DNA from: Candidatus Cloacimonadales bacterium
GTDB taxonomy: Bacteria > Cloacimonadota > Cloacimonadia > Cloacimonadales > JAFGVF01
DNA: 64,000 nt
NCBI GenBank assembly: GCA_963663475.2
Contig: CAXXJV010000001.1
Coordinates: 704,001 to 768,000, forward strand
Reading direction: 5' to 3'
A program made the translations under genes and the position numbers. The notes under the pieces were generated by a model, which ran no database searches, was not told the origin of the DNA, and worked only from the letters and a program-made list of their open reading frames with translations. Below are positions 28,606 through 44,457 of the stretch, in pieces. How positions within the stretch are numbered: position 1 is the stretch's first letter; every line of letters starts with the position of its first letter.

Positions 28606-28619
28606 CAATCCTTTGGATT

Positions 28620-29155
28620 GAATGAAAAGATAAAAATGAAAAATGAAAGAGCTTTTACACGAATTAACTCGAATTAAAACGAATTTACTTGCTTCGCAAG
28701 AATGAAAAATTAAAAGTGAAAAATGAAGAATAAGAATAGAACACAGATGACTCTGATTGAACAGATTAAAACTGATAAGAATGATTAAATAAGGTGAGGG
28801 TTGAGAGTATAGTGTATAGGAAGAATATCGGTGTATTCGGTGTGTTCGGTGGCTAATTTTTTTGTGTTCTTTGTGTCTTTGTGGTGAAAGAGAGATGCTT
28901 GCTTCGCAAGAAAAATAAGAATAGAACACAGACGGCTTGCTTCGCAAGAATGAAAAATTAAAAGTGAAAAATGAAGAATAAGAATAGAACACAGATGACT
29001 CTGATTTAACAGATTTACACTGATATGAAGATTTAAAAATGTAAAAGTTTTATTTATCAATATGATAAAACTCTGTGTTAAGGGTTTTCTTCTTTCAGTG
29101 ATTTCGATGGCTATTTTATTTTCTTTTCAGTGAAATTAGCGTAATTCGTGGATAA
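28620..29155. repeat. Modular repeat mosaic block
   Basis: Module A acacgaattaactcgaattaaaacgaat, three cttgcttcgcaag hairpins, 7-mer tgaaaa(a/g) runs, inverted modules B and C. Confidence 0.9.
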
Positions 29156-29174
29156 TATACCTTAAGGGGAAATT

Positions 29175-30551
29175 ATGAAAAAGACATTGTATTTGATATT
29201 AGTTATTATTTTAGTCTTGATTCTAAATAGTTGTGATAGTTCTACGTCATCTTCTGATGATAAAGTTACTTATAGTGGTGTGGTAAAACTTATAGATTTA
29301 GATGGAAATGAAACTGTTTCAGATGAAGTTACTGTAGCTGTCTTTGAAAAAGATATGGATGATGTGGCCTGGGATTATAGAGTAAATAATCCAATACTTG
29401 TTACAACTACTAATGAATTTGGTGAATTTTCCTATAAAGCTAAGGAAAGAGAAAATTATTATACATACTTTTTGAAAGAAGGGTATTCTATTAAGTCCTT
29501 CAATCAGAATAATTTGCCAGAAAACATTCTACTGTATGAAGATTTGGTCGTGGAAGGAACTATTACAGAGCAAATCATTTTAGAGGGAAAATCTGACTTA
29601 CTTGTTACAGATGATGTAATTTTTACAGAAACTGCTTCCTTAATTATTCAAGAAACATCGCAGATTAGGATTGCACCAGGAAAAAAAATAACAGTTTATG
29701 GAAGTGTGGATTTTCAAGATCCAGTAGATATTACGTCTAATGATAAATCATATTCTTATGGAGAAGACCAAATAAGTGAGTTTTTATCTTTTGAGATAAC
29801 TCCAACTGCTAACATTCAAACTAATACTATTGATAACCTAAAGTGTTCTTTAACAAATTATGGCTTTGTTATAAGAAAAGATAATATCCAAATCAGTAAT
29901 TCAATTTTTGTCAATTCTTCGAACGGGCTCTATATTCTTAATTCAAGTGGTCATATTTTAACACATATCACTGCAAAGAATATAAAAAATGAAAGCAATG
30001 GTGGGATTTATTTAGACTTTGTAGAAAATGCCACTATTAGTAGATGTTTGCTTCAGGGTAATTATAATGGGGTTAAAGTTAAAGAAGTTAGAAATGTTGA
30101 TATTAATAATACTCTTTTTGAAAATAATAGTGCTGGATATCTGAGTTATTATTCAACGGGAGTTGTTACTAATAACAGTTTTGAAAAAAATGATTACGGG
30201 CTAGAATTACTAGCTAACAGAGGAGCTGGTGTCCTAACTATTAAGTATAATAAAATTGAATATAGTGATGTCGGTGTATATCAACATGAGGCTGGTTCAT
30301 GGAATACATTTAATTCAATGATTATTAATAATAATAATTTCATAGATGTTGATACATTTATTAAATATGATTCTTCTGGAATTCAACAAGACTTAGATGC
30401 TAAAAACAATTATTTTGATGGATTAGCTGCTGAAAGTAGTATTCAAGATAGAATTATTGATACTACATGGCAGGATTATGGTTTTATTGATGTAAATATT
30501 ATTCCTTTTAAGACAAGGCCGATTAGTGGAGCAGGGATAATTCAAGAGTGA
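29175..30551 (+). CDS. Putative lipoprotein with right-handed parallel beta-helix
   Basis: Signal peptide with LILNS-C lipobox; Asn-rich beta-helix repeats (NTLFENN, NNSFEKN, NNNNF), LDAKNNYF. Confidence 0.7.
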   Translation: MKKTLYLILVIILVLILNSCDSSTSSSDDKVTYSGVVKLIDLDGNETVSDEVTVAVFEKDMDDVAWDYRVNNPILVTTTNEFGEFSYKAKERENYYTYFLKEGYSIKSFNQNNLPENILLYEDLVVEGTITEQIILEGKSDLLVTDDVIFTETASLIIQETSQIRIAPGKKITVYGSVDFQDPVDITSNDKSYSYGEDQISEFLSFEITPTANIQTNTIDNLKCSLTNYGFVIRKDNIQISNSIFVNSSNGLYILNSSGHILTHITAKNIKNESNGGIYLDFVENATISRCLLQGNYNGVKVKEVRNVDINNTLFENNSAGYLSYYSTGVVTNNSFEKNDYGLELLANRGAGVLTIKYNKIEYSDVGVYQHEAGSWNTFNSMIINNNNFIDVDTFIKYDSSGIQQDLDAKNNYFDGLAAESSIQDRIIDTTWQDYGFIDVNIIPFKTRPISGAGIIQE

Positions 30552-30559
30552 TACTCTTG

Positions 30560-31675
30560 AAAGTGAAAAGATAAAAGTGAAAAATGAAAAATATTTTGCT
30601 TCGCAAAAAAGACGGGGTGACAGGAAGATGGGGTGATGAGGAGATGCTTGCTTCGCAAGAAAATAAGAATAGAACACAGACTGCTTGCTTCGCAAGAATG
30701 AAAAATTAAAAGTGAAAAATGAAGAATAATATATGAAGACTGATTAATAGGCATAGGGCCTGTAATCAGTCTTTTTTTTTTGCTGAAAATTATTTACACG
30801 AATTAAACTTGCTTCGCAAGAATGAAAAATGAAAAGATAAAAATGAAAAATTAAGATATTTAGCCACCGATAACACCGAAAAACACCGAGAAGAGGAAGA
30901 TTTTTATCCACTAATGGGCACTGATTAACACGAATAAGTTTTTAGCCATTTGGCTAAAAGAAGGGGTGACGGGAAGACGGAGAGACGGGGAGATGCTTGC
31001 TTCGCAAGAATGAAAAATGAAAAGTGAAAAATGAAAAGTTTAATATTTTTTATTTGACATGTAGGATTAGCTTGCAAGAATGAAAAAAGGAATGATTTTG
31101 CTTTGCAAAATGACGGGGAGACTGCTTGCTTACGCAAGAATGAAAAATTAAAAGTGAAAAGTGAAAAATAGGTTTAGTGTTGAGAGTTTATGAATTTAAA
31201 AAACTCTGTGAAACACCTCTTGCCCTCTGTGTAACTCTGTGTTAAGGATCTTAGTGAAATTAGTGTAATTAGTGGATAGGTTCTCATTTCATGAGAGTGA
31301 ATAATGAAAAGATAAAAATGAAAAGTATAATATTTTTTATTTGACATGTAGGATTAGCTTGCAAGAATGAAAAAGATGAATTTTGCTTTGCAAAATGACG
31401 GGGAGACTGCTTGCTTCGCAAGAATGAAAAATTAAAAGTGAAAAGTGAAAAATAGGTTTAGTGTTGAGAGTTTATGAATTTAAAAAAAACTCTGTGAAAC
31501 ACCTCTTGCCCTCTGTGTAACTCTGTGTTAAGGATCTTAGTGTAATTAGTGGATAGGTTCTCATTTCATGAGAGTGAATAATGAAAAGCTAAAAGTGAAA
31601 AATGAAAAATTATCTGTGTTAATCTGTGTAATCTGTGGACAGAAAACTTAATTCGAGTTAATTCGTGTGAAGAAT
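30560..31675. repeat. Modular repeat mosaic block containing a 287-bp-period tandem duplication
   Basis: 31041-31325 is nearly identical to 31328-31600; several cttgcttcgcaag, gacgggga 8-mers, inverted modules D, G and A. Confidence 0.9.
30736..30781 (+). terminator. Intrinsic terminator downstream of the lipoprotein gene
   Basis: aagactgatta...taatcagtctt stem followed by a T run. Confidence 0.75.
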
Positions 31676-31712
31676 TTCTGTTAAATAAATAAATTTGAGA
31701 GAAGGTAGCGTG

Positions 31713-33320
31713 ATGAAAAAGAAGGTTTGGTATTTATTGTATTTACTGTTAGATATAGGGATAGTGCTATTTGCCTTTGCGATTGTCGCATGGCTAAGGA
31801 ATGGAACACGTCGTGTTTTAGTTGATTATTCTAAGCCAGTGTTGGGGTTATCACTTGCTTGGGTAGGGGCTGGTTTTTTAGGAGGGAAGTTTTCTATTAA
31901 GAACAAGCCTAGGTTAAGGGCCTTGTGGGCTTCTATTATCAAGTGTGATGCCATAGCGATTGCGGTTGTCTTTGGGGCAATGTTCTTTTTTCATAGATTT
32001 CAGTATTCCCGTTATGTTACTTTTGGAACTATAGGTTTAACAATATTTATAGAACTGATAATATTTGGTTTATTGTATTATTCTTTCCAATTCCATAAGG
32101 ATAATCCATCTTTTGCTAAAACTACTTTTATTACTAAGTCTAAGAAGTTAGAGGAAGAGGGATCTGCTTATGAGTTAGCTAAGTTTGAATCTTCTGATAA
32201 GGTTCCTGATAGTCCAGTTAAGCTAGTAAAGCATTATTGCTTAGAAGATAAAAAGCACAAGGAATCTATTAAGCAAGTTTTAAGGGATAAGTATTTACAT
32301 AATGATGATAAGGTTTTTGAGTTTATTAATAAATACTTAGATCTAGATTGTTTTTGTAAGGATAAAGCACTGGTATTGAACAGTCATGCTCTTTATAACA
32401 TAGAAAACATTGAAGAGCAATCACAAGCTCTCTTTATAAATTTACACAAGGCTAATAATTTTCGCAGGATAAATAAGTATATAATTCAGGTGAATGATAA
32501 CCTGACTCAGGGAGGTGTCTTTGTTGGTTGTGTGGAGACTAAGGCTCAGCGTCGGAGACGATTTATTGAGTCTTATACTGTCGTTTTTGGGAATATTTTC
32601 TATTTAATTGATTTCTTTTTACGTCGTGTCTTTCCTAAAATAGCCTTACTCAAAGGACTCTACTTCTTCATTACTAAGGGAAAGAATAGGGCTTTTAGTG
32701 AGACTGAGATTTTGGGCAGGCTTTACTTCTGTGGTTTTGAGCTTTTAGCTAAGAGAGAGATTCATGGGATAAATTATTTCATTGCTATCAAGACTAAAGA
32801 ACCTTCTCGAGATGAGAATCCATCTTATGGTCCTATTATTCAGCTTAAGCGTAAGGGGAAGAATGGTAAACTTCTCTATGTTAATAAATTCAGGACTATG
32901 CATCCTTACTCTGAATATCTACAGGACTATGTGTATAAGACCTGTAGTTTACAGGAAGGTGGGAAGTTTAAGAATGATTTCCGGGTTACTAGGTGGGGAA
33001 AGGTATTTCGGAAGTTATGGATTGATGAGTTGCCGCAGTTTATTAATTTCTTTAAGGGTGAGCTTAATTTGGTAGGGGTAAGGGCCTTGAGTGAGCATTA
33101 TTTTGGGCTTTATCCACAAGATGTAAGAGAGTTGAGGGTGAAGGTTAAGCCGGGGTTGTTGCCTCCTTTTTATGCGGATATGCCGAAGACTTTTGAGGAG
33201 ATCGTGGAATCGGAGAGGAAGTATTTGGTGCAGAAGATAGAGAGGCCGGTGTGGACGGATTTTAAGTATTTCTGGTTGGTGCTGTGGAATATACTCGTAA
33301 AGAAAGCACGCAGTAATTAA
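31713..33320 (+). CDS. Priming sugar transferase (Bac_transf C-terminal domain, N-terminal TMs)
   Basis: KFRTM, DFRVTRWGKVFRKLWIDELPQ..GELNLVGVR, VKPGL. Confidence 0.85.
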   Translation: MKKKVWYLLYLLLDIGIVLFAFAIVAWLRNGTRRVLVDYSKPVLGLSLAWVGAGFLGGKFSIKNKPRLRALWASIIKCDAIAIAVVFGAMFFFHRFQYSRYVTFGTIGLTIFIELIIFGLLYYSFQFHKDNPSFAKTTFITKSKKLEEEGSAYELAKFESSDKVPDSPVKLVKHYCLEDKKHKESIKQVLRDKYLHNDDKVFEFINKYLDLDCFCKDKALVLNSHALYNIENIEEQSQALFINLHKANNFRRINKYIIQVNDNLTQGGVFVGCVETKAQRRRRFIESYTVVFGNIFYLIDFFLRRVFPKIALLKGLYFFITKGKNRAFSETEILGRLYFCGFELLAKREIHGINYFIAIKTKEPSRDENPSYGPIIQLKRKGKNGKLLYVNKFRTMHPYSEYLQDYVYKTCSLQEGGKFKNDFRVTRWGKVFRKLWIDELPQFINFFKGELNLVGVRALSEHYFGLYPQDVRELRVKVKPGLLPPFYADMPKTFEEIVESERKYLVQKIERPVWTDFKYFWLVLWNILVKKARSN

Positions 33321-33332
33321 GAGAATCAAGAT

Positions 33333-33525
33333 TCTTTACACGAATTAACACGAATGAAAACGAATTTCTCGAATTTTCTTTTTGCTAAGAGTAAAAAGGA
33401 AAGAGACATAAATAACAGAAAAAGAAATAAAAAGAACTAAAAAAAAGAAAAAAATAAAAGTAAGAATATGAAGAAAACTGAGAATTATGACATAACTTAT
33501 TTAAGGTATATTCGTGTGAAGCATT
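33333..33525. repeat. Left repeat flank of the GxxExxY gene
   Basis: Module A forward + A-rich spacer + partial inverted module A; 33338-33513 matches 34084-34260. Confidence 0.9.
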
Positions 33526-33569
33526 TAGTGTGAAAAATTTAGTTTTAAGTAATAAATTATAGAGAAGAG

Positions 33570-33950
33570 GTGGTTGTGATTTTATACAAAGAGGAGAGTT
33601 ATAAGATAATTGGCCGTTGTTTTACTGTTCATACTAATCTAGGTGTCGGTTTTAGTGAGCTAGTCTATCATGAAGCTTTAATGAAGGAATTTGATAAATA
33701 TAATATACCTTATGAACACGAAGCAAAAATTGAAATTGAATATAAAAATGAAAAATTAGAAAAAAAATACTATGCTGATTTTTGTTGTTATGATAAAATA
33801 CTGTTAGAAATAAAGGCATGTTCTCATATAAATGATGAGCATGTTAAACAGGTTCTTAATTATCTAGCTGCTACTAAGCTAAAGTTAGGGATTATTATTA
33901 ATTTTGGAGAAAAAAGCTTAACTTATAAAAGAGTGATATTTGATAAATAA
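33570..33950 (+). CDS. GxxExxY family protein (PD-(D/E)XK-like)
   Basis: LYKEESYKIIG..VH..LGVGFSELVY (GxxExxY), YYADF, LLEIKA, QVLNYL..G.IINFG. Confidence 0.92.
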   Translation: MVVILYKEESYKIIGRCFTVHTNLGVGFSELVYHEALMKEFDKYNIPYEHEAKIEIEYKNEKLEKKYYADFCCYDKILLEIKACSHINDEHVKQVLNYLAATKLKLGIIINFGEKSLTYKRVIFDK

Positions 33951-33964
33951 AGACAAGATAAAAG

Positions 33965-34483
33965 CTACTACACGAATTAACTCAAGTTAAAACGAATAAG
34001 ATGCTTTACACGAATTAACTCGAAGGAGGCTTCATACATTATGCCCTCCCAGGTTAAAACGAATTTCTCGAATAAGATGCTCTACACTAATTAACACGAA
34101 TGAAAACGAATTTCTCGAATTTTTTTTTTGCTAAGATTAAAAAGGAAAGAGATATAAAGAACAGAAAAAGATAATAAAAAGAACTAAAAAAAGAAAAAAA
34201 ATAAAAGTAAGAATATGAAGAAAACTGAGAATTATGACATAACTTATTTAAGCTATATTCAGATTAATTAGTGAAATTCGTTTTCATTCGAGTTAATTTG
34301 TGTGAAGAATTTATTTGAAGCATTTAGGAGAAAAAATGCAGACAAACACGAAAAATAATAAATATCAAAAAAGATAAAAAGTGTGCAGATAATAAACAAG
34401 TGGACAAGAAAGTGTTGACTTTATACTTACAAAAAAAAATAATTCGTGAAATTCGTTTTAATTTGCGTTAATTCGTGTGAAGA
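33965..34483. repeat. Right repeat flank of the GxxExxY gene
   Basis: Several forward module-A arms, second copy of the ~176-bp repeat, inverted arms at ~34268-34308 and 34441-34483. Confidence 0.9.
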
Positions 34484-34524
34484 AATTATTTGAAGTATTA
34501 AGTTTGAAGAATTTAGGAGAAAAG

Positions 34525-35580
34525 ATGAAGATATTAATAACAGGAACTGCTGGTTTTATCGGCTTTCATTTAGCGAACAGGTTGCTCCTCGAGCAAGATG
34601 TTGAGATAATAGGTTTAGATGTAATTAATGATTATTATGATTTAAGAGTGAAGTTTGGTAGATTAGCTGAACATGGTTTCCCCATGCAGAATATTAGGTA
34701 TGGGGAGATTCTGCAGAGTGAGAAATACGCAAATTATAGATTTATTAAATTAGATTTATGTGATAGGGCCAAGCTATATAACTTATTCATAGATGAAAAA
34801 TTTGATGTGGTAGTAAATTTAGCTGCTCAAGCAGGTGTTCGGTATAGTATTACAAATCCGGAGGCCTATCTAGAGAGTAATATTATCGGTTTCTTTAATA
34901 TTTTAGAGGCAGCACGTAAGAATAAAATTAAGCATTTAGTCTATGCCTCCAGCTCTAGTGTATATGGCTGGAATGACAAACTTCCTTTCTGCACTACTGA
35001 TAACGTGGATCACCCTATCTCTCTCTATGCTGCTAGTAAGAAATCTAATGAACTCCTAGCTCATTCTTATAGTGCCCTGTATGATTTACCTACTACTGGA
35101 TTAAGATTCTTCACTGTGTATGGTCCTTGGGGCAGACCAGATATGGCTCTTTTCCTTTTTGCCAAAGCAATTGCTGAAGGAAAGGCAATCGATGTTTATA
35201 ATCATGGTAAGATGAAAAGAGATTTTACTTACATTGATGATATTGTAGAAGGTATTAAAAGAGTAATCTATCATCCTGCTCAAGCTATGCCAGAGTGGAA
35301 TGGCCAGAATCCTACTCCAGGAGCTTCAAAAGCACCGTATAAAATCTATAATATTGGGAATAATGATACAGTATTGCTTATGGATTTTATCGAGGCTATA
35401 GAGGAGGAAATGGGCAAGAAGGCTATAAAGAATATGCTACCATTGCAGCCAGGAGATGTGCCTGCTTCGCATGCGGATGTTACGGATTTGGTGGAGGATT
35501 TGGGGTATAGACCTAATACGCCTATTCGGGAAGGGGTGAAGAGGTTTATTGAGTGGTATCGGGATTTTTATAAAATCTAA
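34525..35580 (+). CDS. NAD-dependent epimerase (UDP-glucuronate 4-epimerase family)
   Basis: GTAGFIG, LAAQAGVRYS, YAASKK, FFTVYGPWGRPDMA, QPGDV; ATG 34525 follows an aggag SD. Confidence 0.93.
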   Translation: MKILITGTAGFIGFHLANRLLLEQDVEIIGLDVINDYYDLRVKFGRLAEHGFPMQNIRYGEILQSEKYANYRFIKLDLCDRAKLYNLFIDEKFDVVVNLAAQAGVRYSITNPEAYLESNIIGFFNILEAARKNKIKHLVYASSSSVYGWNDKLPFCTTDNVDHPISLYAASKKSNELLAHSYSALYDLPTTGLRFFTVYGPWGRPDMALFLFAKAIAEGKAIDVYNHGKMKRDFTYIDDIVEGIKRVIYHPAQAMPEWNGQNPTPGASKAPYKIYNIGNNDTVLLMDFIEAIEEEMGKKAIKNMLPLQPGDVPASHADVTDLVEDLGYRPNTPIREGVKRFIEWYRDFYKI

Positions 35581-35585
35581 AAGAT

Positions 35586-35817
35586 TCTTTACACGAATTA
35601 ACTCGAATTAAAACGAATTTCACGAATAAGATACTCTACACTAATTAACACGAATTAAAACGAATTACTTTTGCTAAAAGCAAAAATAAAAGAGGAAAAA
35701 AAGAAAATGATAAAAAGAGGGCTGATAAATAACAAATGGACAAAAAGTATTAACTTCTTATTTCGAAAAAGGTTAATTCGAGAAATTCGTTTTAATTCGT
35801 TTTAATTCGTGTGAAGA
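35586..35817. repeat. 42-bp imperfect inverted repeat (module A) spanning the intergenic gap
   Basis: 35586-35627 pairs with 35776-35817: 38 Watson-Crick, 1 U.G, 3 mismatches. Confidence 0.92.
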
Positions 35818-35835
35818 CTTTTGATAGGATAAAAT

Positions 35836-36225
35836 ATGATAAATACTTCGAAATATACAAGATGGGGTTTATTTCTCTATCTTATAACGCTGGTTACTGT
35901 TTCGGTGATGCCACTGGGAAATGCCAGTAAAGAATTGACAGATATTACTGTGATTCGAATTAGAGGGGATTACTTTCTCCATATGTTGGTGTATTTGCCT
36001 ATGATTAGTCTGATGCTGCTTAGTTTTCCTAAATGGAAATGGGGGATGGTGGTTATTGCACTTGGCTTGGGGGTAGGACTTGAATACTTGCAGATGCTGC
36101 TTAGTTATAGGGCCTTTAATATTAATGATTTGGTGGCGAATCTTGGGGGAGTGGTTATTGGAGGAGGGATTTTCGCCTTTCGGCTCAAAGATGCTTGCTT
36201 CGCAAGAATTAAAAATGAAAAATAA
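35836..36225 (+). CDS. VanZ-family membrane protein
   Basis: DYFLHMLVY, LEYLQ..LSYRAFNINDLVAN.GG. Confidence 0.85.
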   Translation: MINTSKYTRWGLFLYLITLVTVSVMPLGNASKELTDITVIRIRGDYFLHMLVYLPMISLMLLSFPKWKWGMVVIALGLGVGLEYLQMLLSYRAFNINDLVANLGGVVIGGGIFAFRLKDACFARIKNEK

Positions 36226-36342
36226 TAGAGCTTTTTACCTTTCGGCTCAAAGACGGGGAGACGGGGTGACGGGGAGAAATGAGAACCTATCCACAAATAA
36301 ACACAAATTAACGCGAATTAAGACGAATTTCTCGAATTTTAT

Positions 36343-37517
36343 TTCACCACAAAGACACAAAGACACAAAAAAAATTATCCACGAATAAACACAAATTAAC
36401 ACTAATAATCTATATCTTAAAATCCTTAACACAGAGTTTCACAGAGGTCCCACAGAGTTACACAGAGTTTTTTAATTCCTAAACGCTAAACTCTCAACAT
36501 TACTAAACTTTTAAATCTTTAAATCATTCTTCACCACAAAGACACAAAGAACACAAAAAAAATTATCCACGAATAAACACAAATTAACACTAATAATCTA
36601 TATCTTAAAATCCTTAACACAGAGTTACACAGAGATCACCACAGAGTTACACAGAGATCACCACAGAGTTACACAGAGTTTTTTAATTCCTAAACGCTAA
36701 ACTCTCAACATTACTAAACTTTTAAATCTTTAAATCATTCTTCACCACAAAGACACAAAGAATACAAAAAATTTATCCACGAATAAACACAAATTAACAC
36801 TAATAATCTATATCTTAAAATCCTTAACACAGAGGGCAAGAGGAGTTTCACAGAGTTTTTTAATTCCTAAACGCTAAACTCTCAACATTACTAAACTTTT
36901 AAATCTTTAAATCATTCTTCACCACAAAGACACAAAGAACACAAAATAATTAGCCACCGAAAACACCGAATACACCGATATTTTTCCTATACGCTATACT
37001 CTCAACCCTCACCTTATTAAATCATTAAACTCTTAAATCTTTAAATCAATCTTATCAGTTTTAATCTGTTCAATCAGAGTCATCTGTGTTCTATTCTTAT
37101 TTTCTTGCGAAGCAAGCATCTCTCTTTCACCACAAAGACACAAAGAACACAAAAAAAATTATCCACGAATAAACACAAATTAACACTAATAATCTATATC
37201 TTAAAATCTTTAACACAGAGTTACACAGAGGGCAAGAGGAGTTTCACAGAGTTTTTTAATTCCTAAACGCTAAACTCTCAACACTACTAAACTTTTAAAT
37301 CTTTAAATCATTCTTCACCACAAAGACACAAAGAACACAAAATAATTAGCCACCGAAAACACCGAATACACCGATATTTTTCCTATACGCTATACTCTCA
37401 ACCCTCACCTTATTAAATCATTAAACTCTTAAATCTTTAAATCAATCTTATCAGTTTTAATCTGTTCAATCAGAGTCATCTGTGTTCTATTCTTATTTTC
37501 TTGCGAAGCAAGCATCT
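36343..37517. repeat. Higher-order tandem array of 177-211 bp composite units (A-A-A-B-A-B)
   Basis: Units start with ttcaccacaaagacacaaag at 36343, 36530, 36741, 36918, 37126 and 37314. Confidence 0.95.
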
Positions 37518-37632
37518 TAGTGGTGAATATATATTTTTTTAACTTTTTTTGAGAAAAGTGACCATTTTTAAAAAAAAGGCCTCTTAAAGATTATGAAGGC
37601 TATAAGCCAAATAAAAAAAATGAGGTAATAAA

Positions 37633-38067
37633 ATGATGGTATCAAAAAAAGGTAAAGAGGAAAAAAGAGCTTTTGGCAGAAACAAGGGAAATGTAGCAAA
37701 TTGCTTATTTGCTGAAGATGTAGTGAGTGATGTAAATAAGGTAGTTAGTAATTTATCTGGTTTGGATGCTTATTTAGAAATTGTGGAATCAACTCTTGAT
37801 TATTTTACAGCAAATATGAAGTCTATGATTGCTGATCTGAAGGGAAATATCTTGAATGATATTTTTGAACTTAATCTTGTAATTGATGAGGCGGAAGAAG
37901 TTGATTGTGATGGGTGTTTGTATTCTGAAGCAGATGAAGATTCTACTGAAGATGAGGAGGAGATGCTGGATGAGGATGCATGGAGTCTAGCTTTAGCAAA
38001 AGAACTTATTACTAAGGTTAAAAAAGTAATTGAAAAAATTGATTTTTTAAATTATGAAAAAGTATAA
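37633..38067 (+). CDS. Hypothetical acidic protein
   Basis: 144-aa ORF with gaggt SD, non-repetitive, lying between repeat blocks; family not recognised. Confidence 0.65.
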   Translation: MMVSKKGKEEKRAFGRNKGNVANCLFAEDVVSDVNKVVSNLSGLDAYLEIVESTLDYFTANMKSMIADLKGNILNDIFELNLVIDEAEEVDCDGCLYSEADEDSTEDEEEMLDEDAWSLALAKELITKVKKVIEKIDFLNYEKV

Positions 38068-38071
38068 GACA

Positions 38072-38149
38072 ATGATTGCCTGGCTAGTTTTAATTATTAT
38101 TTGGGGATTTTTTATACTTGATATCCATATTCTTAATAGGATGGGATGA
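38072..38149 (+). CDS. Possible 25-aa hydrophobic peptide
   Basis: MIAWLVLIIIWGFFILDIHILNRMG starts 4 nt after the upstream stop; no clear SD. Confidence 0.25.
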   Translation: MIAWLVLIIIWGFFILDIHILNRMG

Positions 38150-38204
38150 TAAGAGTGGTTTAGGTGGAGGAAGAGACAGTGCCCTCTTTGTTCTTGTGAA
38201 TGAA

Positions 38205-38565
38205 GAGGGATTTTCGCCTTTCAGCTCAAAGATGTTTGCTTCGCAAGAATTAAAAATGAAAAATAAGAAGATTCTTTACACGAATTAACACGAATTAAAA
38301 CGAATTACACGAATTTTATTTCACCACAAAGACACAAAGAACACAAAGAAGAAGATTCTTAACACAGAGTTACACAGAGGTCACCACAGAGTTACACAGA
38401 GGTCACCACAGAGTTACACAGAGTTTTTAAGATATTGATTATTAGTGTTAATATGTGTTTATTCGTGGATAAGTTCTCATTTCATGAGAGTGAATAATGA
38501 AAAGATAAAAATGAAAAATAAAAGAGCTTTGCTCAAAGACGGGGAGACGGGGTGACGGGGAGAGT
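38205..38565. repeat. Modular repeat mosaic block
   Basis: Copy of 36164-36225, modules A, B, D, inverted G, tctcatttcatgaga hairpin, gacgggg 8-mers. Confidence 0.9.
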
Positions 38566-38814
38566 AAACATTCCTTACACAGACCGGAGTTCCTCAGCCG
38601 TAGGCAAGGGACTTCGGGCGAAGAGTGTCGGAAGTCGCTACTCCGTGAGCAACTCCCGTCACTCCTAATTAGGGTAAAGAATCTCTTTTTTTCTTATCAG
38701 TGTTTTCAGTTACTAAATCTTCTAACTAGTAGATTCTAAAAGGCTCAAGTTCAAGTCTGGTGGGAATAATATAGGAAAATGAGAATATTTCATTACTATA
38801 TTGATTCATCAAAA

Positions 38815-38915
38815 ATCCCTGAAAGGGATAAAATAATTTAGCCCAGGGTAAGATGCTGAAAGTATCGCAACCCTGGGTAATGATGGCTAGCCCAAAGATA
38901 TTACCCTGTAAGGGT
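38815..38915. repeat. REP-like multi-hairpin element
   Basis: atccct-gaa-agggat; cccagggt...accctggg enclosing gatgct-gaa-agtatc; accct-gta-agggt. Confidence 0.7.
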
Positions 38916-38941
38916 TTAATAAAAGGATAAATAATGAAAGA

Positions 38942-39205
38942 GCTTTTACTCGAATTAACACGAATTAAGACGAATTTCACGAATTTTATTTCACCACAAA
39001 GACACAAAGAACACAAAGAAGTAGATCCTTAACACAGAGTTACGCAGAGTTTTTAAGAGAAGGGAGGGAGAAAATTGCCACCGAAAACACGAAGAAGGTT
39101 TTCACCTTTCGGCTCAAAGACGGAGTGATGGAGTGATGGAGAGATAGAGAGACGGAGAGATAGAGAGACGGAGAGACGGAGAGACGGAGATAGAGATTGA
39201 GAGAG
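38942..39205. repeat. Modular repeat block ending in nine tandem 8-mers
   Basis: 38948-39050 matches 38278-38380; ga(c/t)(g/a)gag(a/t) x9 at 39119-39190. Confidence 0.9.
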
Positions 39206-39222
39206 AAAAAAATCCTTTTATC

Positions 39223-39251
39223 TTGACACTAATTCTTAGGAAAGACATAGT
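39223..39251 (+). promoter_or_regulatory. Putative sigma70-type promoter for murA
   Basis: TTGACA-N17-CATAGT; the same hexamer pair occurs at 59631. Confidence 0.5.
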
Positions 39252-39372
39252 GACAAAATAAAGCCAAATAATGCAGTAGGGTTTTATGGAAGAGTGGAGA
39301 AGAATATTTTGCTAGTCATAAAAACCTACTAGACTATTTGGGATAAATTAAGAGATAGGAAATGGTGATATA

Positions 39373-40626
39373 ATGAAGAAGTTTTTAATAAAGGGTGGAA
39401 AGAAATTAGCAGGTAGTGTAGAAGTAAGTGGAGCTAAGAATGCAATATTGCCTATTTTAGCTGCTTGTTTGCTTACTCGGGGAAAGTGTGTTTTAACTAA
39501 TGTTCCTAAGTTAGTTGATTTGAAAACCATGGCCCATTTGCTAAGAATTATTGGAGCTAGAGTTGATTATTTAGAGGGTAGAATGGAAGTTGATACTGCT
39601 GATGTTTGTTTTCCTGAAGCTCCTTATGAACTTGTTTCACAGATGCGGGCTTCTATCTATGTATTAGGTCCACTATTAGTAAAGTTTAAGAAGGCTAAAG
39701 TTTCCTTCCCTGGTGGTTGTGCTATTGGGGCTAGACCTATTGATTTACATTTAAAGGCTTTGGAAAAAATGGGAGCAAGTTTCGAAACTAAGAAGGGTTA
39801 TCTCTATGCTAAAACTGCAGAATTGCAGGGGGCAGAAATTGACTTTGAAAATGTTTCGGTAGGAGCTACTTGTCATATTTTAATGACAGCTACTTTAGCT
39901 AAGGGGAAGACTATCATGAGAAATTGTGCCAGAGAGCCAGAAATTGATAGTTTGATAGACTTTTTAGTCAAGATGGGAGCTAAGATAAAAGGAAAAGGCA
40001 CTTCTACTTTAGAGGTTGAAGGTGTTAAAGAGCTTTTTCCGGTAGGCATGGAAATGATGCCTGATAGAATAGAAGCAGGAACATTTTTAATTGCTGGTGC
40101 TATTACTAAGAGTGAAATTACTATAGATAAGTGTAATCCTCAACATTTAGAAGCTTTGATTCTCAAGATGCAACAGGCTGGTTTTCAGGTTGATTGTGAG
40201 GAAAATAAGATGAAGATTTTCCCAGCTAAAAGAATTTTGCCAGTTAATATTGTTACTGATCCTTATCCAGCTTTTCCTACTGATTTGCAAGCTCAGTTTT
40301 TAGCTTTAATGACTCTTGCTCAAGGGACTTCTTACATAGAAGATACTATTTTTCCTGATAGATTCATGCATGTTCCAGAATTAAATAGATTGCAGGCTAA
40401 TATTTCTCAAGAGAAAGGAAAGGCTAAGGTTGAAGGAGTTAAAGAATTATCAGGGGCAGAAGTAATGGCTACTGATCTAAGAGCAAGCGCTGCTTTGGTC
40501 TTGGCAGGTTTAGCTGCAGAGGGAGAGACGATAGTGTCTAGAATCTACCATATTGATAGAGGTTATGATAATATTGAAGGTAAATTAAGATTATTAGGAG
40601 CGGACATTGAAAGGATTGAAGAATAA
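39373..40626 (+). CDS. murA: UDP-N-acetylglucosamine 1-carboxyvinyltransferase
   Basis: SGAKNA, MRAS, PGGCAIGARPIDLH, PDRIEAGT, FPTDLQ, DLRA, HIDRGY. Confidence 0.97.
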   Translation: MKKFLIKGGKKLAGSVEVSGAKNAILPILAACLLTRGKCVLTNVPKLVDLKTMAHLLRIIGARVDYLEGRMEVDTADVCFPEAPYELVSQMRASIYVLGPLLVKFKKAKVSFPGGCAIGARPIDLHLKALEKMGASFETKKGYLYAKTAELQGAEIDFENVSVGATCHILMTATLAKGKTIMRNCAREPEIDSLIDFLVKMGAKIKGKGTSTLEVEGVKELFPVGMEMMPDRIEAGTFLIAGAITKSEITIDKCNPQHLEALILKMQQAGFQVDCEENKMKIFPAKRILPVNIVTDPYPAFPTDLQAQFLALMTLAQGTSYIEDTIFPDRFMHVPELNRLQANISQEKGKAKVEGVKELSGAEVMATDLRASAALVLAGLAAEGETIVSRIYHIDRGYDNIEGKLRLLGADIERIEE

Positions 40627-41674
40627 GAAAATAGCTGTTGCAATGAGTGGGGGGGTGGATAGCTCAGTTGTGGCTTGTCTGCTTAAAAAAGAAGGCTATG
40701 ATATTGCTGGTTTTACTATGGTTCAATACGATGATGAGGAGTTTGGCTATAGTCCAAATGAAGGAGCTTTGGCTGCAGCTAAGGATGCCCAGAAGATTTG
40801 TGACCAACTTAATATAAAACATCTTGTGATTAATGTTAAAGATCAGTTTAAAAGAATCGTTTTGAATGATTTTGTTGATCAATATAAAAGAGGTTATACT
40901 CCTAATCCTTGTACTCTTTGCAATCCTACCATAAAGTGGGGTGCTTTCTTTGATAAAATTAAGGAATTTGGTTTTGAATATTTTGCAACTGGACATTATG
41001 TTAAATTGATTCAGGGGGAAGATAGACCTCATGTTTATCGGGCAGATAATTCTAAAGACCAAACTTATATGTTATGGAGGGTGAGGAAAGAGCAATTCGC
41101 TAAGACTATTTTCCCGCTTTATCAACTTAATAAAGATGAGGTTAGAAAAATTGCTTTAGAAAATCACTTACATGTTGCTGAAAAAAAGGATTCTCAAGAA
41201 ATATGTTTTATCAAAGATCACTATTTAGATTTTGTTAATAAGCTAGTGCCAGCAAAAGCAGGAAAGATAAAGCTTCTTTCTGGGGAAACAATAGGTCAAC
41301 ATCAAGGGCTAACTGCTTATACTATTGGACAGAGGAAGGGACTGCAAACTAAGTTAAATATTACTCTTTATGTTCATTCTATGGATATTAGCAACAATAT
41401 TCTTTATGTTACTTCTGATAGGGAGGATTTGAAAGTTACTTCCTTCAGGATTAAAGAATGTCATTTCTTAGAAACAAATATGACGCTGGTCAAGAAGAGT
41501 CTGGTGCAAATAAGATATAATTCAAAGGCGGTTCAAGTTAGGGATCTTATTTTTGAAGGTAAAGAAGCCTTAGTTGTTTTAGAAGATGCAGTTGAATCTG
41601 TAACACCTGGTCAATCAGCTGTCTTTTATTCTTTAGATAATGAATTGCTGGGTGGCGGGATAATTAGTAAGTAG
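40607..41674 (+). CDS. mnmA: tRNA 2-thiouridylase
   Basis: AMSGGVDSS, TPNPC..CN, ATGHY, KDQTY, DSQEICF, YTIGQRKG, TPGQSAVFY. Confidence 0.96.
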   Translation: MKGLKNKKIAVAMSGGVDSSVVACLLKKEGYDIAGFTMVQYDDEEFGYSPNEGALAAAKDAQKICDQLNIKHLVINVKDQFKRIVLNDFVDQYKRGYTPNPCTLCNPTIKWGAFFDKIKEFGFEYFATGHYVKLIQGEDRPHVYRADNSKDQTYMLWRVRKEQFAKTIFPLYQLNKDEVRKIALENHLHVAEKKDSQEICFIKDHYLDFVNKLVPAKAGKIKLLSGETIGQHQGLTAYTIGQRKGLQTKLNITLYVHSMDISNNILYVTSDREDLKVTSFRIKECHFLETNMTLVKKSLVQIRYNSKAVQVRDLIFEGKEALVVLEDAVESVTPGQSAVFYSLDNELLGGGIISK

Positions 41675-41684
41675 TCTGGATTAA

Positions 41685-42590
41685 ATGCTAGAACTTATCA
41701 AAAAGTGGACAGGTCTTTTTCTCTTGGGGGCGGTAGGATTAGGCTTTCTTTTCCCAATTTTCTCTAGCTTCAAGCCAGTGATGATTCCGCTTCTCATGGT
41801 CCTGCTTTATTGCTCTTTCGTGAGGATGAAGTTTCAAAGAAAGAAGTTTATCCGTAGGGAATTGTTAATTTTTCCTGTAATCTCTTGGCTTATTTTTCCT
41901 CCTCTAATTTATTATGGAACAGGTTGGTTGGGGACTGATTTACAGATAGGTTTTCTATTAGCAGTGATAACTCCTCCTGCCCTAGGTTCGCCAGTAATGG
42001 TTTCTTTAGCTAAGGGGGATTTAGAGTTTACTGTGGCGAATGTTACTTTATTTAACTTACTTTCTCCCCTTATATTTGCCTTAATTCCTAGCATTTTTTT
42101 GCTAAAAACGGATATGGAAATTAACTTTCTTAATATTTTCCTGAGGGTAACAATGATAATTTTTATACCTTTGCTGCTAGCTTATTTTACAGAAAAATCT
42201 AATAGGTTAAAAGATTTTATTCTCAAGAAAGTAGATCCATTTAAAGCATTAATTCAGATGTTCTTAATTGTTATAGCTGTGGCAAATTCTGCTAAACAAA
42301 TTAGAGAAATGCCCAATTCCCACCTTTTGCAGGTTTTTATTACTAGTTTTCTGATTAGTGGGATACTCTATTTAACAGGCTGGCTACTGGCAAATTCAAA
42401 GAAAATGAAATATACCTTACCAATAACAAGTGGACATAAGAATACCCTTTTAACTATCACGCTAGCAATAGGGACTTTTAATGAAATTACTGCTCTCCCA
42501 GCAGTCTTTTACTTAATTGCTCATCATACTTTCAATGGAATAATTATTAACCTTAGTCGAAAAACTAAAGAAGAAGAGATACCTGCATGA
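41685..42590 (+). CDS. Bile acid:Na+ symporter (SBF/BASS)-like membrane protein
   Basis: Multi-TM; TPPALGSP, NLLSP, GHKN..L, PAV.Y. Confidence 0.7.
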   Translation: MLELIKKWTGLFLLGAVGLGFLFPIFSSFKPVMIPLLMVLLYCSFVRMKFQRKKFIRRELLIFPVISWLIFPPLIYYGTGWLGTDLQIGFLLAVITPPALGSPVMVSLAKGDLEFTVANVTLFNLLSPLIFALIPSIFLLKTDMEINFLNIFLRVTMIIFIPLLLAYFTEKSNRLKDFILKKVDPFKALIQMFLIVIAVANSAKQIREMPNSHLLQVFITSFLISGILYLTGWLLANSKKMKYTLPITSGHKNTLLTITLAIGTFNEITALPAVFYLIAHHTFNGIIINLSRKTKEEEIPA

Positions 42591-43297
42591 AACAAAACAA
42601 AGACTTAATTAAAGCTTATCTTAAAGAAGTGGTTAGGCCCTTATATAATAAATTTGCTAATAAATATGCTACAGAATTGGGTTACTGGAAGAAAATATAT
42701 CTGAGGGATGGAGAGTCTTTTGAGAATGATTTTTATAAGAAAATATTCTTAAACTTAGCTCAAGAGAATGATGATAAATTCTTAGAGAATAAAATTGTTG
42801 CAGACTTCGGGTGCGGTCCTAGGGGCAGTCTTAAATGGATTAAATCTGCTAAACAGAAGATTGGTATTGATGTCTTAGCTGACCAATATTTAGATTCTTT
42901 CGGACAAGACATGCTTACCCATGATATGGTATATCTTAAATCAACAGAGAAAATTATACCACTTCCTAATGAATCGCTAGATGTTATGTTTACTCTTAAT
43001 GCTATGGACCATGTTGATAACTTTCCCCAAATGTGTAATGAAATTTATCGAACAATCAGGAAGAAGGGTGTCTTGTATGCTTCTTTTAACCTGGAAGAAA
43101 AAGCAACTTCTGCAGAACCTCAGTGTCTTAGTGAAAAGTTAATACATAAATATTTACTTGATAAATTTGAAATTCTTACTTATAGGGTTACTAATCAAGG
43201 ACCACAAGGAAATCTCTTCCAACCATTGTATGAAGATGATCTTCATTATGATCCTGGGCAAGAAGGTATTCTTTGGGTTAAGGCTAGAAAAGAGTGA
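42587..43297 (+). CDS. Class I SAM-dependent methyltransferase
   Basis: VADFGCGPRG, GIDVL, IPLPNESLDV..NAMDHV. Confidence 0.85.
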   Translation: MKQNKDLIKAYLKEVVRPLYNKFANKYATELGYWKKIYLRDGESFENDFYKKIFLNLAQENDDKFLENKIVADFGCGPRGSLKWIKSAKQKIGIDVLADQYLDSFGQDMLTHDMVYLKSTEKIIPLPNESLDVMFTLNAMDHVDNFPQMCNEIYRTIRKKGVLYASFNLEEKATSAEPQCLSEKLIHKYLLDKFEILTYRVTNQGPQGNLFQPLYEDDLHYDPGQEGILWVKARKE

Positions 43298-43354
43298 TAG
43301 TATCCACGAATTACACTAATTATACTAAAAAGATGGTAAATGGGAAGAATGGGG

Positions 43355-43513
43355 AAGCAGGGATGCTTATGGACTGATGGCATCCTGCCATCAGATTTGT
43401 GCAAGCAGGGATGCTTATGGACTGATGGCATCCTGCCATCAGATTTGTGCAAGCAAGGATGCTTATGGACTGATGGCATCCTGCCATCAGATTTGTGCAA
43501 GCAAGGATGCTTA
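43355..43513. repeat. 48-bp REP-like tandem repeat x3 plus partial copy
   Basis: aagcagggatgcttatggactgatggcatcctgccatcagatttgtgc at 43355, 43403, 43451; palindrome ctgatggca-tcc-tgccatcag; further partial copy at 43931-43980. Confidence 0.92.
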
Positions 43514-43612
43514 CACTCCATAGGCTCCGTAACCACTTGTCATCTGCGTAAAAGCGGGCTGGAATCTCACGACTCAAATACGGGCAGACTTTTAGCAAGC
43601 TAATTTTTTCCT

Positions 43613-43680: not shown

Positions 43681-43744
43681 GACTTCTTTTGTAGGTAGTA
43701 TTATACTGCCTACTGCGGGCAAGGATGCCCGCCTTCCCAGTTAG

Positions 43745-44446: not shown

Positions 44447-44457
44447 AATACATTCAC

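What the first reader, a model, noticed from the sequence alone, without database searches (positions are those of the whole stretch)
35586..35817. Module-A arms close a stem from just after one stop codon to just before the next start, looping out the insert
Seen: 35586-35627 pairs with 35776-35817 (42 bp). The stem begins 5 nt after the epimerase stop and ends 18 nt before the vanZ ATG. The same family forms the outermost arms at two more junctions: 33333 with 34441-34483 (encloses the GxxExxY gene, ends 41 nt before the epimerase ATG) and ~28653 with 31650-31673 (encloses the 1.4-kb lipoprotein, ends 39 nt before the transferase ATG). Module G similarly opens 3 nt after the methyltransferase stop (43301 with 43669-43680) around a REP array. 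Inference: an intervening-sequence-like architecture that leaves the host operon compact once folded or excised, analogous to RNase III-excised rRNA intervening sequences but in an mRNA. The GxxExxY-carrying copy would be autonomous and the 35.6 kb copy a cargo-less derivative.
Basis: partly seen in the sequence, partly recalled or inferred. Interest (0 to 1): 0.8.

Follow-up and report, generated by a model that had tools for sequence, protein, structure and literature searches.

The report
Hairpin-armed spacer cassette, IVS-like
A 240-base insert between two genes of a sugar-coat operon is closed by inverted repeat arms and belongs to a little-described class of hitchhiker cassettes that resemble the intervening sequences of ribosomal RNA genes; whether the RNA is really cut out is untested.

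Summary
The inverted repeat is real: 35581-35627 pairs with 35776-35822 (47 nt, 87%; fold z -7.8), filling the epimerase-vanZ spacer of a Cloacimonadales polysaccharide operon. Module A (four phased CACGAATT-type decamers) has about 47 copies in the genome, mostly solo. Inverted pairs occur only in this region.

The same two junctions in six same-genus genomes hold other arm families. They also hold cargo. Junction 1 carries a GxxExxY nuclease gene or a 23S-rRNA-IVS-protein (IVP) gene in 7 of 7 genomes. Junction 2 carries IVP, an IVP remnant or nothing.

Matched inverted arms of short tandem words bracket 16 of 30 GxxExxY genes and 14 of 27 IVP genes in relatives (nulls 27/600 and 2/600). The same design brackets IVP genes on cyanobacterial plasmids and in a true Azospirillum 23S IVS.

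So the IVS analogy holds in architecture. RNA excision is unshown: no RNA runs were listed, arm mismatches show no G.U bias, and partner arms are no more alike than random copies. "Autonomous GxxExxY" is unsupported. "Cargo-less derivative" is plausible, because the subterminal sequences are shared.

The scan has noted such cassettes before in at least 25 other genomes. I found no paper describing them.

The parts
35581..35627 (+). Left arm: full forward copy of module A (four phased decamers of the CACGAATT type), starting 1 nt after the epimerase stop codon
   Evidence: the repeat finder I1; nhmmer model positions 1-45, E 3e-14
35630..35666 (+). Second, partial forward copy of module A (model positions 1-37); absent from the orthologous element in L001
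35668..35686 (.). Small hairpin module (TTTTGC..GCAAAA) that also follows solo module A copies elsewhere in the genome
35704..35770 (+). Right subterminal segment, shared with 34368-34435 (78% over 68 nt) and with L001 and L006; always in the same orientation
35776..35822 (-). Right arm: reverse copy of module A, ending 13 nt before the vanZ-like ATG and leaving the AGGA ribosome-binding site free
33330..33374 (+). Outer left arm of the junction-1 array (module A), 9 nt after the sugar-transferase stop
33570..33950 (+). GxxExxY / PDDEXK_3 gene (126 aa), cargo of the junction-1 array; D70, E80, K82 and the GxGxxExxY motif are intact
   Evidence: Pfam E 1.8e-37; TIGR04256 E 2.1e-39; invariant residues; model pLDDT 95.4 with a Cas4-like fold
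34076..34310 (.). Nested cargo-less unit: forward arm 34076-34120, interior, reverse arm 34267-34310. Its interior is 94% identical to 33375-33513
34368..34435 (+). Right subterminal segment of the junction-1 array, homologous to 35704-35770
34442..34484 (-). Outer right arm of the junction-1 array (module A), ending 40 nt before the epimerase ATG at 34525
28650..28686 (+). Partial forward module A copy after the short-chain dehydrogenase gene; weak left arm of the third pair
31647..31675 (-). Partial reverse module A copy before the sugar-transferase gene; weak right arm of the third pair
34525..35580 (+). Host gene upstream of the finding: NAD-dependent epimerase/dehydratase
   Evidence: orthologues 86-95% identical in L001-L006
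35836..36225 (+). Host gene downstream of the finding: VanZ-like protein
   Evidence: E 2.2e-09

Best explanation
The 242-bp unit at 35581-35822 is a gene-less member of a class of hitchhiker cassettes. These cassettes occupy the spacers between co-directional genes. Each consists of two inverted arms built from three or four tandem 7-10-nt words, with a small gene or nothing between them. The gene, when present, is a GxxExxY PD-(D/E)XK nuclease or a four-helix-bundle 23S-rRNA-IVS protein. This is the same design as the ORF-bearing intervening sequences of 23S rRNA, here sitting in an operon spacer.

Shown:
- The arms and their fold.
- The cassette states at the same two junctions in six sister genomes.
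- The statistical association of both gene families with matched arms.
- The arm word tracks the GxxExxY protein clade.
- The gene-less copy shares both ends with the neighbouring gene-carrying array.

Inferred:
- The cassette is selfish or neutral DNA that arrives, decays and is replaced at the DNA level.
- The arms are kept matched by the way they are made or homogenised, rather than by base-by-base selection on RNA.
- Because the cassette is transcribed inside the operon, the 47-bp stem forms in the RNA and is a likely RNase III substrate, as in rRNA IVS and Correia elements. That would make the insert tolerable.

I give about 0.4 to the RNA-cleavage step and about 0.8 to class membership.
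For: Arms and fold.

Junction 1 (sugar transferase to epimerase). All 7 genomes carry cargo between outer inverted arms:
- GxxExxY with module A arms in the window, L003 and L006.
- A GxxExxY only 29-32% identical, with CACAGAG arms, in L002 and L004.
- IVP with purine-rich octamer arms in L001 and L005.

Junction 2 (epimerase to vanZ):
- Module A arms without cargo in the window and L001.
- IVP with (GAGAGATT)n arms in L003.
- A 20-aa IVP remnant in L002 (E 0.001-0.002).
- Two other arm families in L004.
- Arms only, 63 nt, in L006.

Predicted folds. 12 of 14 of these spacers have 17 or more pairs joining the first 70 nt to the last 90 nt, and 10 of 14 have 30 or more. In 260 of 435 other co-directional spacers, under a laxer rule, the counts are 55 and 12 of 260.

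Inverted arms within 300 nt (alignment score 18 or more):
- GxxExxY: 16 of 30 loci, against 27 of 600 mismatched flanks.
- All G000 genes: 40 of 2420. Small genes: 6 of 411.
- IVP: 14 of 27, against 2 of 600.

Other phyla. 6 of 8 IVP genes show such arms, among them a true 23S IVS in Azospirillum (L109). 1 of 5 GxxExxY genes does.

Arm word follows the GxxExxY tree: 16 label changes against a shuffled mean of 20.0, with 0 of 200 shuffles as low.

The upstream gene is co-directional in 26 of 26 determinable GxxExxY loci.

Shared ends of the gene-less and gene-carrying copies.

The Coxiella IVS has a 28-bp terminal stem, tandem heptamers before the ORF, and is excised by RNase III (PMC4990558, abstract and passages). 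The host has RNase III and a stem-closed insert in its 23S rRNA that I read as an IVS.
Against: - There are no RNA data of any kind.
- In 33 arm pairs the mismatches are 93 transversions, 37 sense-strand G.U and 30 antisense G.U (p 0.46). Pairing shows no RNA-type conservation.
- The three partner pairs in the window are 82-87% identical, below the 91% median of all 561 pairs of module A copies.
- About 40 of 47 module A copies are solo.
- Closure of spacers is not a genome-wide rule: 7 of 568 against 64 of 1500 mismatched ends.
- No remnant of GxxExxY or IVP is detectable inside 35581-35835 (best E above 1).
- The interior of the unit has no copies outside this locus.
- In L004 the two arm pairs at junction 2 are crossed, not nested.
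- 14 of 30 GxxExxY genes and 13 of 27 IVP genes show no arms at the threshold used.
- An 84%-identical IVP gene has different arm words at two junctions, so arms do not simply travel unchanged with the gene.
Confidence: 0.6

Rival explanations
1. Passive mosaic repeat debris. Module A is one of many short intergenic modules of this lineage (BIME-like). The inverted pairs arose by local inverted duplication of spacer DNA. Neither the stem nor the unit has any role in RNA or any mobility of its own.
For: - Spacers all over the genome are mosaics of many module families.
- A 2.5-kb spacer 40 kb upstream is one nested palindrome.
- Most module A copies are solo.
- Partner arms are not especially alike.
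- There is no G.U bias.
- There is no genome-wide closure rule.
- The unit's interior is confined to this locus.
Against: - It does not explain why both junctions are closed by arms of at least four different families in sister genomes.
- It does not explain why two unrelated small-gene families are bracketed by cassette-specific matched arms at about 50%, against 0.3-4.5% for mismatched flanks.
- It does not explain why the same design occurs in cyanobacteria and in a true 23S IVS.
Confidence: 0.22
2. A host-selected cis-acting RNA structure. The long stem would protect, insulate or couple the flanking cistrons of the long polysaccharide operon, and module A would be kept for that purpose.
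For: - The stem begins right after the stop codon and ends before the ribosome-binding site.
- Forward copies follow stop codons in gene orientation, 21 against 6.
- The element is orthologous and about 88-90% conserved in L001.
- Closure recurs at both junctions.
Against: - No compensatory or G.U pattern.
- Partner arms are below the family median in identity.
- L006 manages with a 63-nt spacer.
- The content of the spacer is freely replaced between species.
Confidence: 0.08
3. A miniature inverted-repeat transposable element or REPIN, mobilised in trans by a transposase that recognises module A as its terminal repeat.
For: - 47-nt terminal inverted repeats on a 242-bp unit without a gene.
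- Four Y1_Tnp genes in the genome, two of them flanked by REP-like inverted repeats.
Against: - The whole unit is not dispersed. Its interior matches only the neighbouring spacer.
- No target duplication is visible at the junction.
- The Y1 transposase genes are flanked by a different module family, and none lies near module A.
Confidence: 0.07
4. An invertible DNA switch. The 148-bp interior would flip between the arms and carry a promoter for vanZ, as in the phase-variable polysaccharide loci of Bacteroides (recalled, not read here).
For: - Inverted repeats flank a short segment inside a polysaccharide locus.
- A promoter-like site TTGACT-17-AATAAT lies at the homologous place of junction 1 (34415-34443).
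Against: - All 13 of 13 matches of the interiors in L001, L003 and L006 are collinear with the window.
- The window and L001 align collinearly.
- Promoter-like sites are not enriched: 13 found, 12.9 expected.
- The DNA contigs that were laid follow the reference orientation (pieces 8, 15, 24).
Confidence: 0.03

Closest known systems
ORF-bearing intervening sequences (IVS) of 23S rRNA (Coxiella; Leptospira named in that paper). PMC4990558, abstract and passages read. An Azospirillum example, L109, was examined here.
   Same: - Terminal inverted repeats close the insert into a long stem.
- The arms contain tandem short words.
- An optional small ORF of the S23p/IVP family is present. That family occupies these very junctions in L001, L003 and L005.
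- The ORF decays, and ORF-less versions exist.
   Different: - The unit lies between protein-coding genes of an operon, not in helix 25 or 45 of rRNA.
- This copy has no ORF.
- Its sister array carries a GxxExxY nuclease instead of IVP.
- RNase III excision is shown for rRNA IVS and not tested here.
Correia repeat-enclosed elements (CREE/NEMIS) of Neisseria. PMC2649163, abstract as shown in the search listing.
   Same: - A small element bounded by inverted repeats, in intergenic DNA, co-transcribed with its neighbours.
- According to that abstract, the folded repeat binds RNase III and may be cleaved, and the ends can create promoters.
   Different: - No sequence relation.
- CREE are hundreds of near-identical dispersed copies. 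This unit is local, and only its 45-nt arm is dispersed.
- CREE never carry a gene.
REP / REPIN elements with RAYT transposases, and BIME mosaics (recalled: Bertels and Rainey 2011, Gilson and co-workers; not read here).
   Same: - Short extragenic modules in both orientations that form hairpin doublets and mosaics.
- An orientation bias relative to flanking genes.
- The genome does hold RAYT-like genes flanked by their own REP-like repeats.
   Different: - Module A is a phased tandem-word array, not a palindromic unit.
- No Y1 transposase gene is flanked by it.
- The cargo genes are a PD-(D/E)XK nuclease and a four-helix-bundle protein, not a transposase.
Repeat-armed GxxExxY cassettes noted earlier in this scan (e1-1288746, e1-4980788 and others); not in print as far as my searches reach.
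   Same: Inverted arms of repeated short words around a GxxExxY gene or around nothing, in spacers between co-directional genes, with the IVP family as alternative cargo.
   Different: New in this window:
- A pair of adjacent junctions with a gene-carrying and a gene-less copy of one arm family.
- Six sister genomes with alternative states at the same sites.
- Negative tests for RNA-level selection.

Membership tests
23S rRNA intervening sequence (IVS) | Inserted in a helix of a 23S (or 16S) rRNA gene | tested here: not met
   The unit lies between an epimerase gene and a vanZ-like gene. There is no rRNA match in 28000-45000.
23S rRNA intervening sequence (IVS) | Terminal inverted repeats that close the insert into a long stem | tested here: met
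   47 nt, 87%; fold z -7.76
23S rRNA intervening sequence (IVS) | Excision from the precursor RNA by RNase III | not testable with these tools
   No RNA run was listed. An RNase III gene is present.
23S rRNA intervening sequence (IVS) | Optional ORF of the S23p / 23S_rRNA_IVP family in the loop | tested here: not met
   No IVP remnant in 35581-35835, and PF05635 is absent from G000. The feature is met at the same junction in L003, and at junction 1 in L001 and L005.
Repeat-armed GxxExxY / IVP cassette (class seen in this scan, not in print) | Two inverted arms, each of three or four tandem 7-10-nt words | tested here: met
   Module A is four phased decamers. Arms of 16 GxxExxY and 14 IVP cassettes have the same format with other words.
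Repeat-armed GxxExxY / IVP cassette (class seen in this scan, not in print) | Encloses a GxxExxY or IVP gene, or is a gene-less copy sharing ends with a gene-carrying one | tested here: met
   The junction-1 array with the same arms holds the GxxExxY gene. The 68-nt subterminal segment is shared.
Repeat-armed GxxExxY / IVP cassette (class seen in this scan, not in print) | Lies in a spacer between co-directional genes | tested here: met
   26 of 26 determinable GxxExxY loci have a co-directional upstream gene.
MITE | Many dispersed copies of the whole unit | tested here: not met
   The interior matches only 34368-34435 plus a short hairpin module.
MITE | Target-site duplication at the ends | tested here: inconclusive
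   No direct repeat is evident at the borders when compared with L006 and L001. No truly empty site is available.
REPIN-RAYT | A cognate Y1 (RAYT) gene flanked by the same repeat | tested here: not met
   Of four Y1_Tnp matches, two are flanked by a different hairpin family and none lies near module A.
Invertible promoter switch | Both orientations of the segment between the repeats occur | tested here: not met
   13 of 13 interior matches in relatives are collinear. The laid contigs follow the reference.
Correia element (CREE) | Sequence family of Neisseria with a conserved core | not tested
   No CREE sequence was compared. The resemblance is functional only (abstract).

The most novel reading that the evidence does not exclude
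Repeat-armed cassettes are one cross-phylum class of selfish elements, of which the classical 23S rRNA IVS is only the best-known habitat. They settle in hairpin-forming spots of highly transcribed units, namely rRNA helices and operon spacers. RNase III cuts them out of the transcript at the arm stem, so operons contain true mRNA intervening sequences. The conserved GxxExxY nuclease, or the IVP protein, acts on the arm hairpin or cruciform to move the cassette or to keep its arms matched. On this reading the 35.6-kb unit is a gene-less copy that still depends on RNA excision.
Probability: 0.2. Interest if true: 0.85.

Novelty: new variant of a known kind. Interest (0 to 1): 0.6.

Why it matters
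The origin and meaning of rRNA intervening sequences, and of the S23p/IVP and GxxExxY orphan families, have stayed open since IVS were found. PMC4990558 still lists only hypotheses.

This locus shows the same element design outside rRNA. It gives a natural series at two fixed junctions: a gene-carrying copy, a gene remnant, arms only, and replacement by another arm family. Insertion, decay and replacement can be read from that series, and RNase III processing of an operon transcript can be tested on it directly.

In practice, such cassettes explain a good part of the orphan small genes and repeat clutter inside polysaccharide, cas and fab operons. They also break short-read assemblies at these sites.

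Tried and rejected
- RNA evidence: no RNA holder was listed for 31600-36300.
- Laying four DNA runs (contigs) on 28400-36500 gave contigs that break at the repeats. The joints had sides of 19-39 letters and are best read as other genomic copies of the modules. This shows nothing about excision or empty sites.
- Rfam at E up to 1 over 28000-45000 found no family at the arms, only four tRNAs and sub-threshold matches.
- The sigma-70 scan found 13 sites against 12.9 expected, so there is no promoter signal.
- PADLOC gave only a weak partial match of GxxExxY (PDC-M36A, E 2e-4) and nothing for IVP.
- The PDB sequence search found no match for GxxExxY. The fold search gave only generic Cas4 / lambda-exonuclease-type PD-(D/E)XK cores (best E 1.5e-4, TM 0.60), which does not name a substrate.
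- My first closure test mixed spacer classes and gave an inflated null. I redid it within co-directional spacers.
- I looked for a remnant of cargo inside the gene-less unit and found none.
- I considered integron attC sites, iterons and bent-DNA sites for the phased decamers. I dropped them without a test, because other cassettes use words with no A-tracts and periods of 7-9 nt.
- Literature searches found no description of GxxExxY or IVP cassettes in operon spacers:
  - GxxExxY: 3 papers, the two listed mention it only in passing.
  - PDDEXK_3 / PF13366 / TIGR04256: 2 papers; the one read (PMC3424549) lists the family's function as unknown.
  - 23S IVS plus four-helix bundle plus inverted repeat.
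  - IVP names: 9 papers.
  - STRR / heptamer / S23.
  - IVS / RNase III / intergenic / operon / selfish.
  Subscription journals and supplements were not covered.

Full report
OBSERVATION

The arms are there. The repeat finder gives 35581-35627 against 35776-35822: 47 nt, 87% complementary, 148 nt between them. The epimerase stop codon ends at 35580 and the vanZ-like ATG is at 35836. The stem therefore spans the whole spacer and leaves the AGGA before the ATG free. As RNA, 35570-35840 folds to -63.1 kcal/mol, against -32.9 (sd 3.9) for 200 shuffles, z -7.76.

The second pairing is equally real: 33332-33383 with 34433-34484, 52 nt, 87%. The third consists of two partial copies that share about 26 nt across 3 kb (28650-28686 with 31647-31675). 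The module G pairing is about 10 of 11 nt and is not reported at a minimum of 12, which is chance level.

Any forward copy pairs with any reverse copy. 34442-34493 with 35576-35627 would loop out the epimerase gene just as well.

THE ORGANISM AND THE REPEAT

The window is C1:704001-768000 of a 3.30-Mb, 33% G+C genome in two contigs. The closest epimerase loci are Candidatus Cloacimonadales assemblies at 86-95% protein identity.

The genes around the finding form one long co-directional polysaccharide-type operon: AMP-binding enzyme, short-chain dehydrogenase, NosD-like protein, sugar transferase, GxxExxY, epimerase and VanZ-like protein.

Module A is a 45-nt unit of four phased decamers. A profile finds 47 copies at E below 1e-5. 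Between co-directional genes, 21 point the way of the genes and 6 the other way. The forward ones sit close to the upstream stop. Five of the 6 opposite copies are right arms of inverted pairs in this polysaccharide region: three in the window, and two facing forward copies about 40 kb upstream. Elsewhere module A is solo, inside mosaics of many other short modules.

Genome-wide, closing stems are not a rule. Only 7 of 568 co-directional spacers reach -40 kcal/mol between their two ends. Among 1500 pairs of ends taken from different spacers, 64 do.

WHAT THE SISTER GENOMES SHOW

The order sugar transferase, epimerase, vanZ is kept in L001-L006.

Junction 1 (sugar transferase to epimerase) holds a small extra gene between outer inverted arms in 7 of 7 genomes:
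- A GxxExxY gene with module A arms in the window, L003 and L006.
- A GxxExxY gene only 29-32% identical, with CACAGAG-word arms, in L002 and L004.
- A 23S_rRNA_IVP gene with purine-rich octamer arms in L001 and L005.

Junction 2 (epimerase to vanZ), the site of the finding, holds:
- Module A arms without a gene in the window and L001. The two are orthologous: they align collinearly and differ by module-sized insertions and deletions.
- An IVP gene (Pfam E 8.8e-33) between (GAGAGATT)n arms in L003.
- A 20-residue IVP remnant between similar arms in L002.
- Two other arm families in L004, crossed rather than nested.
- A complex array in L005.
- Just 63 nt of arms in L006.

In predicted folds, 10 of the 14 spacers have 30 or more pairs joining their first 70 nt to their last 90 nt. 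Under a laxer rule, 12 of 260 other co-directional spacers of the genome do (260 sampled of 435). The 14 are not independent, but at least four arm families are involved.

THE GENERAL PATTERN

I asked whether the two gene families are bracketed by inverted arms more often than expected. The test was a local alignment of the 300 nt before the gene with the reverse complement of the 300 nt after it, with a score of 18 or more.

- GxxExxY genes of 20 related genomes: 16 of 30. Flanks from different loci: 27 of 600.
- All called genes of this genome: 40 of 2420. Small genes: 6 of 411.
- IVP genes: 14 of 27, against 2 of 600 (28 of 30 fetched loci were given and one was dropped for a short flank).

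The arms are always three or more tandem words of 6-10 nt. GxxExxY arms use words of the CAC-plus-four type. IVP arms use purine-rich words before the gene and their complement after it. The word differs from cassette to cassette.

On a GxxExxY tree the arm word follows the protein clade: 16 changes, shuffled mean 20.0, and 0 of 200 shuffles as low. Orthologous sites inflate this figure.

Outside the phylum, 6 of 8 IVP genes sampled from plasmids have such arms. They include genes between cas6 and cas4 in two cyanobacteria. One gene, on an Azospirillum plasmid, lies inside a 23S rRNA gene and so is a true IVS. Of 5 GxxExxY genes sampled in the same way, 1 passes (Bernardetia, CACAGAG words) and 4 do not.

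The Coxiella IVS is described with a 28-bp terminal stem, AGAAGA plus three tandem heptamers before the S23p ORF, RNase III excision and a decaying ORF (PMC4990558, abstract and passages).

HOW IT MOST LIKELY WORKS, AND WHAT SPEAKS AGAINST THE RNA STEP

The cassette genes depend on the host operon. The nearest large upstream ORF is co-directional in 26 of 26 determinable GxxExxY loci, so the arms are transcribed.

The host has RNase III. Its four 23S genes carry an ORF-less, AT-rich insert of about 230 nt closed by a 23-bp stem. I read it as an IVS, and by position it is probably in helix 45, though I did not map it onto the rRNA structure. Cleavage of the 47-bp stem is therefore plausible, and Correia elements give a precedent in mRNA (abstract of PMC2649163).

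Nothing here shows that cleavage happens.
- In 33 arm pairs the mismatches are 93 transversions, 37 that would be G.U in the sense RNA and 30 that would be G.U only in the antisense (p 0.46).
- The window's partner arms are 82-87% identical, below the 91% median for all 561 pairs of copies.

Complementarity thus looks like a by-product of family membership or of the way arms are generated, not of base-by-base selection. The cassette-specific matching of words still needs an explanation. Candidates are homogenisation within a DNA hairpin, inverted duplication at insertion, and selection on the stem as a whole.

An IVP gene 84% identical sits at junction 1 in L001 and at junction 2 in L003, with different though related octamer words. 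This shows movement between spacers and fast turnover of arms.

AUTONOMY AND THE GENE-LESS COPY

The GxxExxY protein has an intact PD-(D/E)XK set: G25, G27, E30, Y33, D70, E80 and K82 are invariant in 27 sequences. It gives a confident model (pLDDT 95.4) whose nearest solved folds are Cas4 and lambda-exonuclease cores. It is probably an active nuclease.

Nothing ties it to module A, however. The genome has four GxxExxY genes, all within C1:697-738 kb. None of the other three has module A within 1 kb. One has CACAGAG-type arms, one has CACAGAA-type arms, and one has no arms within 300 nt.

The gene-less unit shares more than the arms with the junction-1 array: the small hairpin after the left arm, and a 68-nt segment before the right arm at 78% identity. 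That fits a derivative that lost, or never had, the cargo. No gene remnant is detectable in it, and its interior has no other copy in the genome. It is therefore not a dispersed MITE.

An invertible switch is unlikely, since 13 of 13 interior matches in relatives are collinear.

COMPARISON AND NOVELTY

The unit works like an rRNA IVS or a Correia element. It fails IVS membership on location and on the ORF, and it fails MITE and REPIN membership on dispersal and on a cognate transposase.

It fits the repeat-armed GxxExxY / IVP cassette class. This scan has noted that class before in at least 25 other genomes, and one note concerns the same CGAAT module in another Cloacimonadales genome. I looked these up after my own tests. 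They agree with my reading and did not shape it.

My six literature searches found no description of such cassettes in operon spacers.

VERDICT

The reading as an IVS-like architecture is right in kind and unproven in mechanism. The autonomy claim is unsupported. I rate it a new variant of a known kind, with interest 0.6.

Noticed in passing
L040:2674-2924 (G000 C1:986979-987229), and the three other 23S genes: All four 23S rRNA genes are about 190 nt longer than the Rfam model. They carry an AT-rich, ORF-less insert of about 230 nt closed by a 23-bp stem (91%). It folds at z -8.6. It looks like a classical helix-45-type IVS.
   Followed up: partly
L039:527-3017 (G000 C1:693026-695516): A 2.5-kb spacer that is one nested palindrome. 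Several module families, module A among them, run forward on the left and mirrored in reverse order on the right. A 37-nt central hairpin sits at 1899-1979.
   Followed up: partly
G000 C1:703904-704248 (window -96 to 248; L039:11405-11749): A GxxExxY reading frame with one in-frame TGA, bracketed tightly by 46-nt inverted arms of CACAGAA/CACTGAA words (L039:11360-11405 and 11756-11801).
   Followed up: partly
G000 C1:2619189-2619539 and C1:1464160-1464510: Two Y1_Tnp (IS200/RAYT-like) genes, each flanked by about 70-nt inverted repeats made of REP-like hairpins. This module family also litters other spacers and may be a REPIN-RAYT system of its own.
   Followed up: partly
window 43350-43513 and 43745-43914: Tandem arrays of a 48-nt unit (3-4 copies, each with a 21-nt palindrome) and of a 53-nt unit (3 identical copies), between the methyltransferase gene and a tRNA cluster.
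   Followed up: no
L110 and L111 (plasmids of Pseudanabaena galeata and Anabaena sp. 90): Four-helix-bundle (IVP) genes sit between cas6 and cas4 in both, each between inverted arrays of a different heptamer word.
   Followed up: partly
L116 (Sphingomonas parapaucimobilis plasmid): A GxxExxY gene lies between fabD and fabG. It has a triple CGCGA-type word before it. No right arm is present, and fabG starts 3 nt after its stop.
   Followed up: no
window, the eight module A copies aligned: All four reverse copies read TTCACAC where all four forward copies read TTTACAC. This makes a U.G at that position in each predicted stem.
   Followed up: no
L074-L103 and L104-L111: The left arms of IVP cassettes are purine-rich words that resemble Shine-Dalgarno cores (GAGG, GGAG, AGGT). 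The right arms are their pyrimidine complement.
   Followed up: no
relatives G001-G030: GxxExxY and IVP genes cluster within 40-60 kb in each genome. Examples are 10 GxxExxY matches in G014 C1:786-827 kb and 7 IVP matches on G028 C13. In G000 the cluster lies in the polysaccharide locus.
   Followed up: partly
L005:4295-4600 and 5533-5838: The vanZ-like gene is duplicated in this relative, with a repeated spacer array of about 1.2 kb between the copies.
   Followed up: no
window 38814-38877 (-): A sub-threshold Rfam match to Acido-Lenti-1 RNA (33.4 bits, gathering score 37, E 2e-4) in the repeat-rich region after the vanZ-like gene.
   Followed up: no
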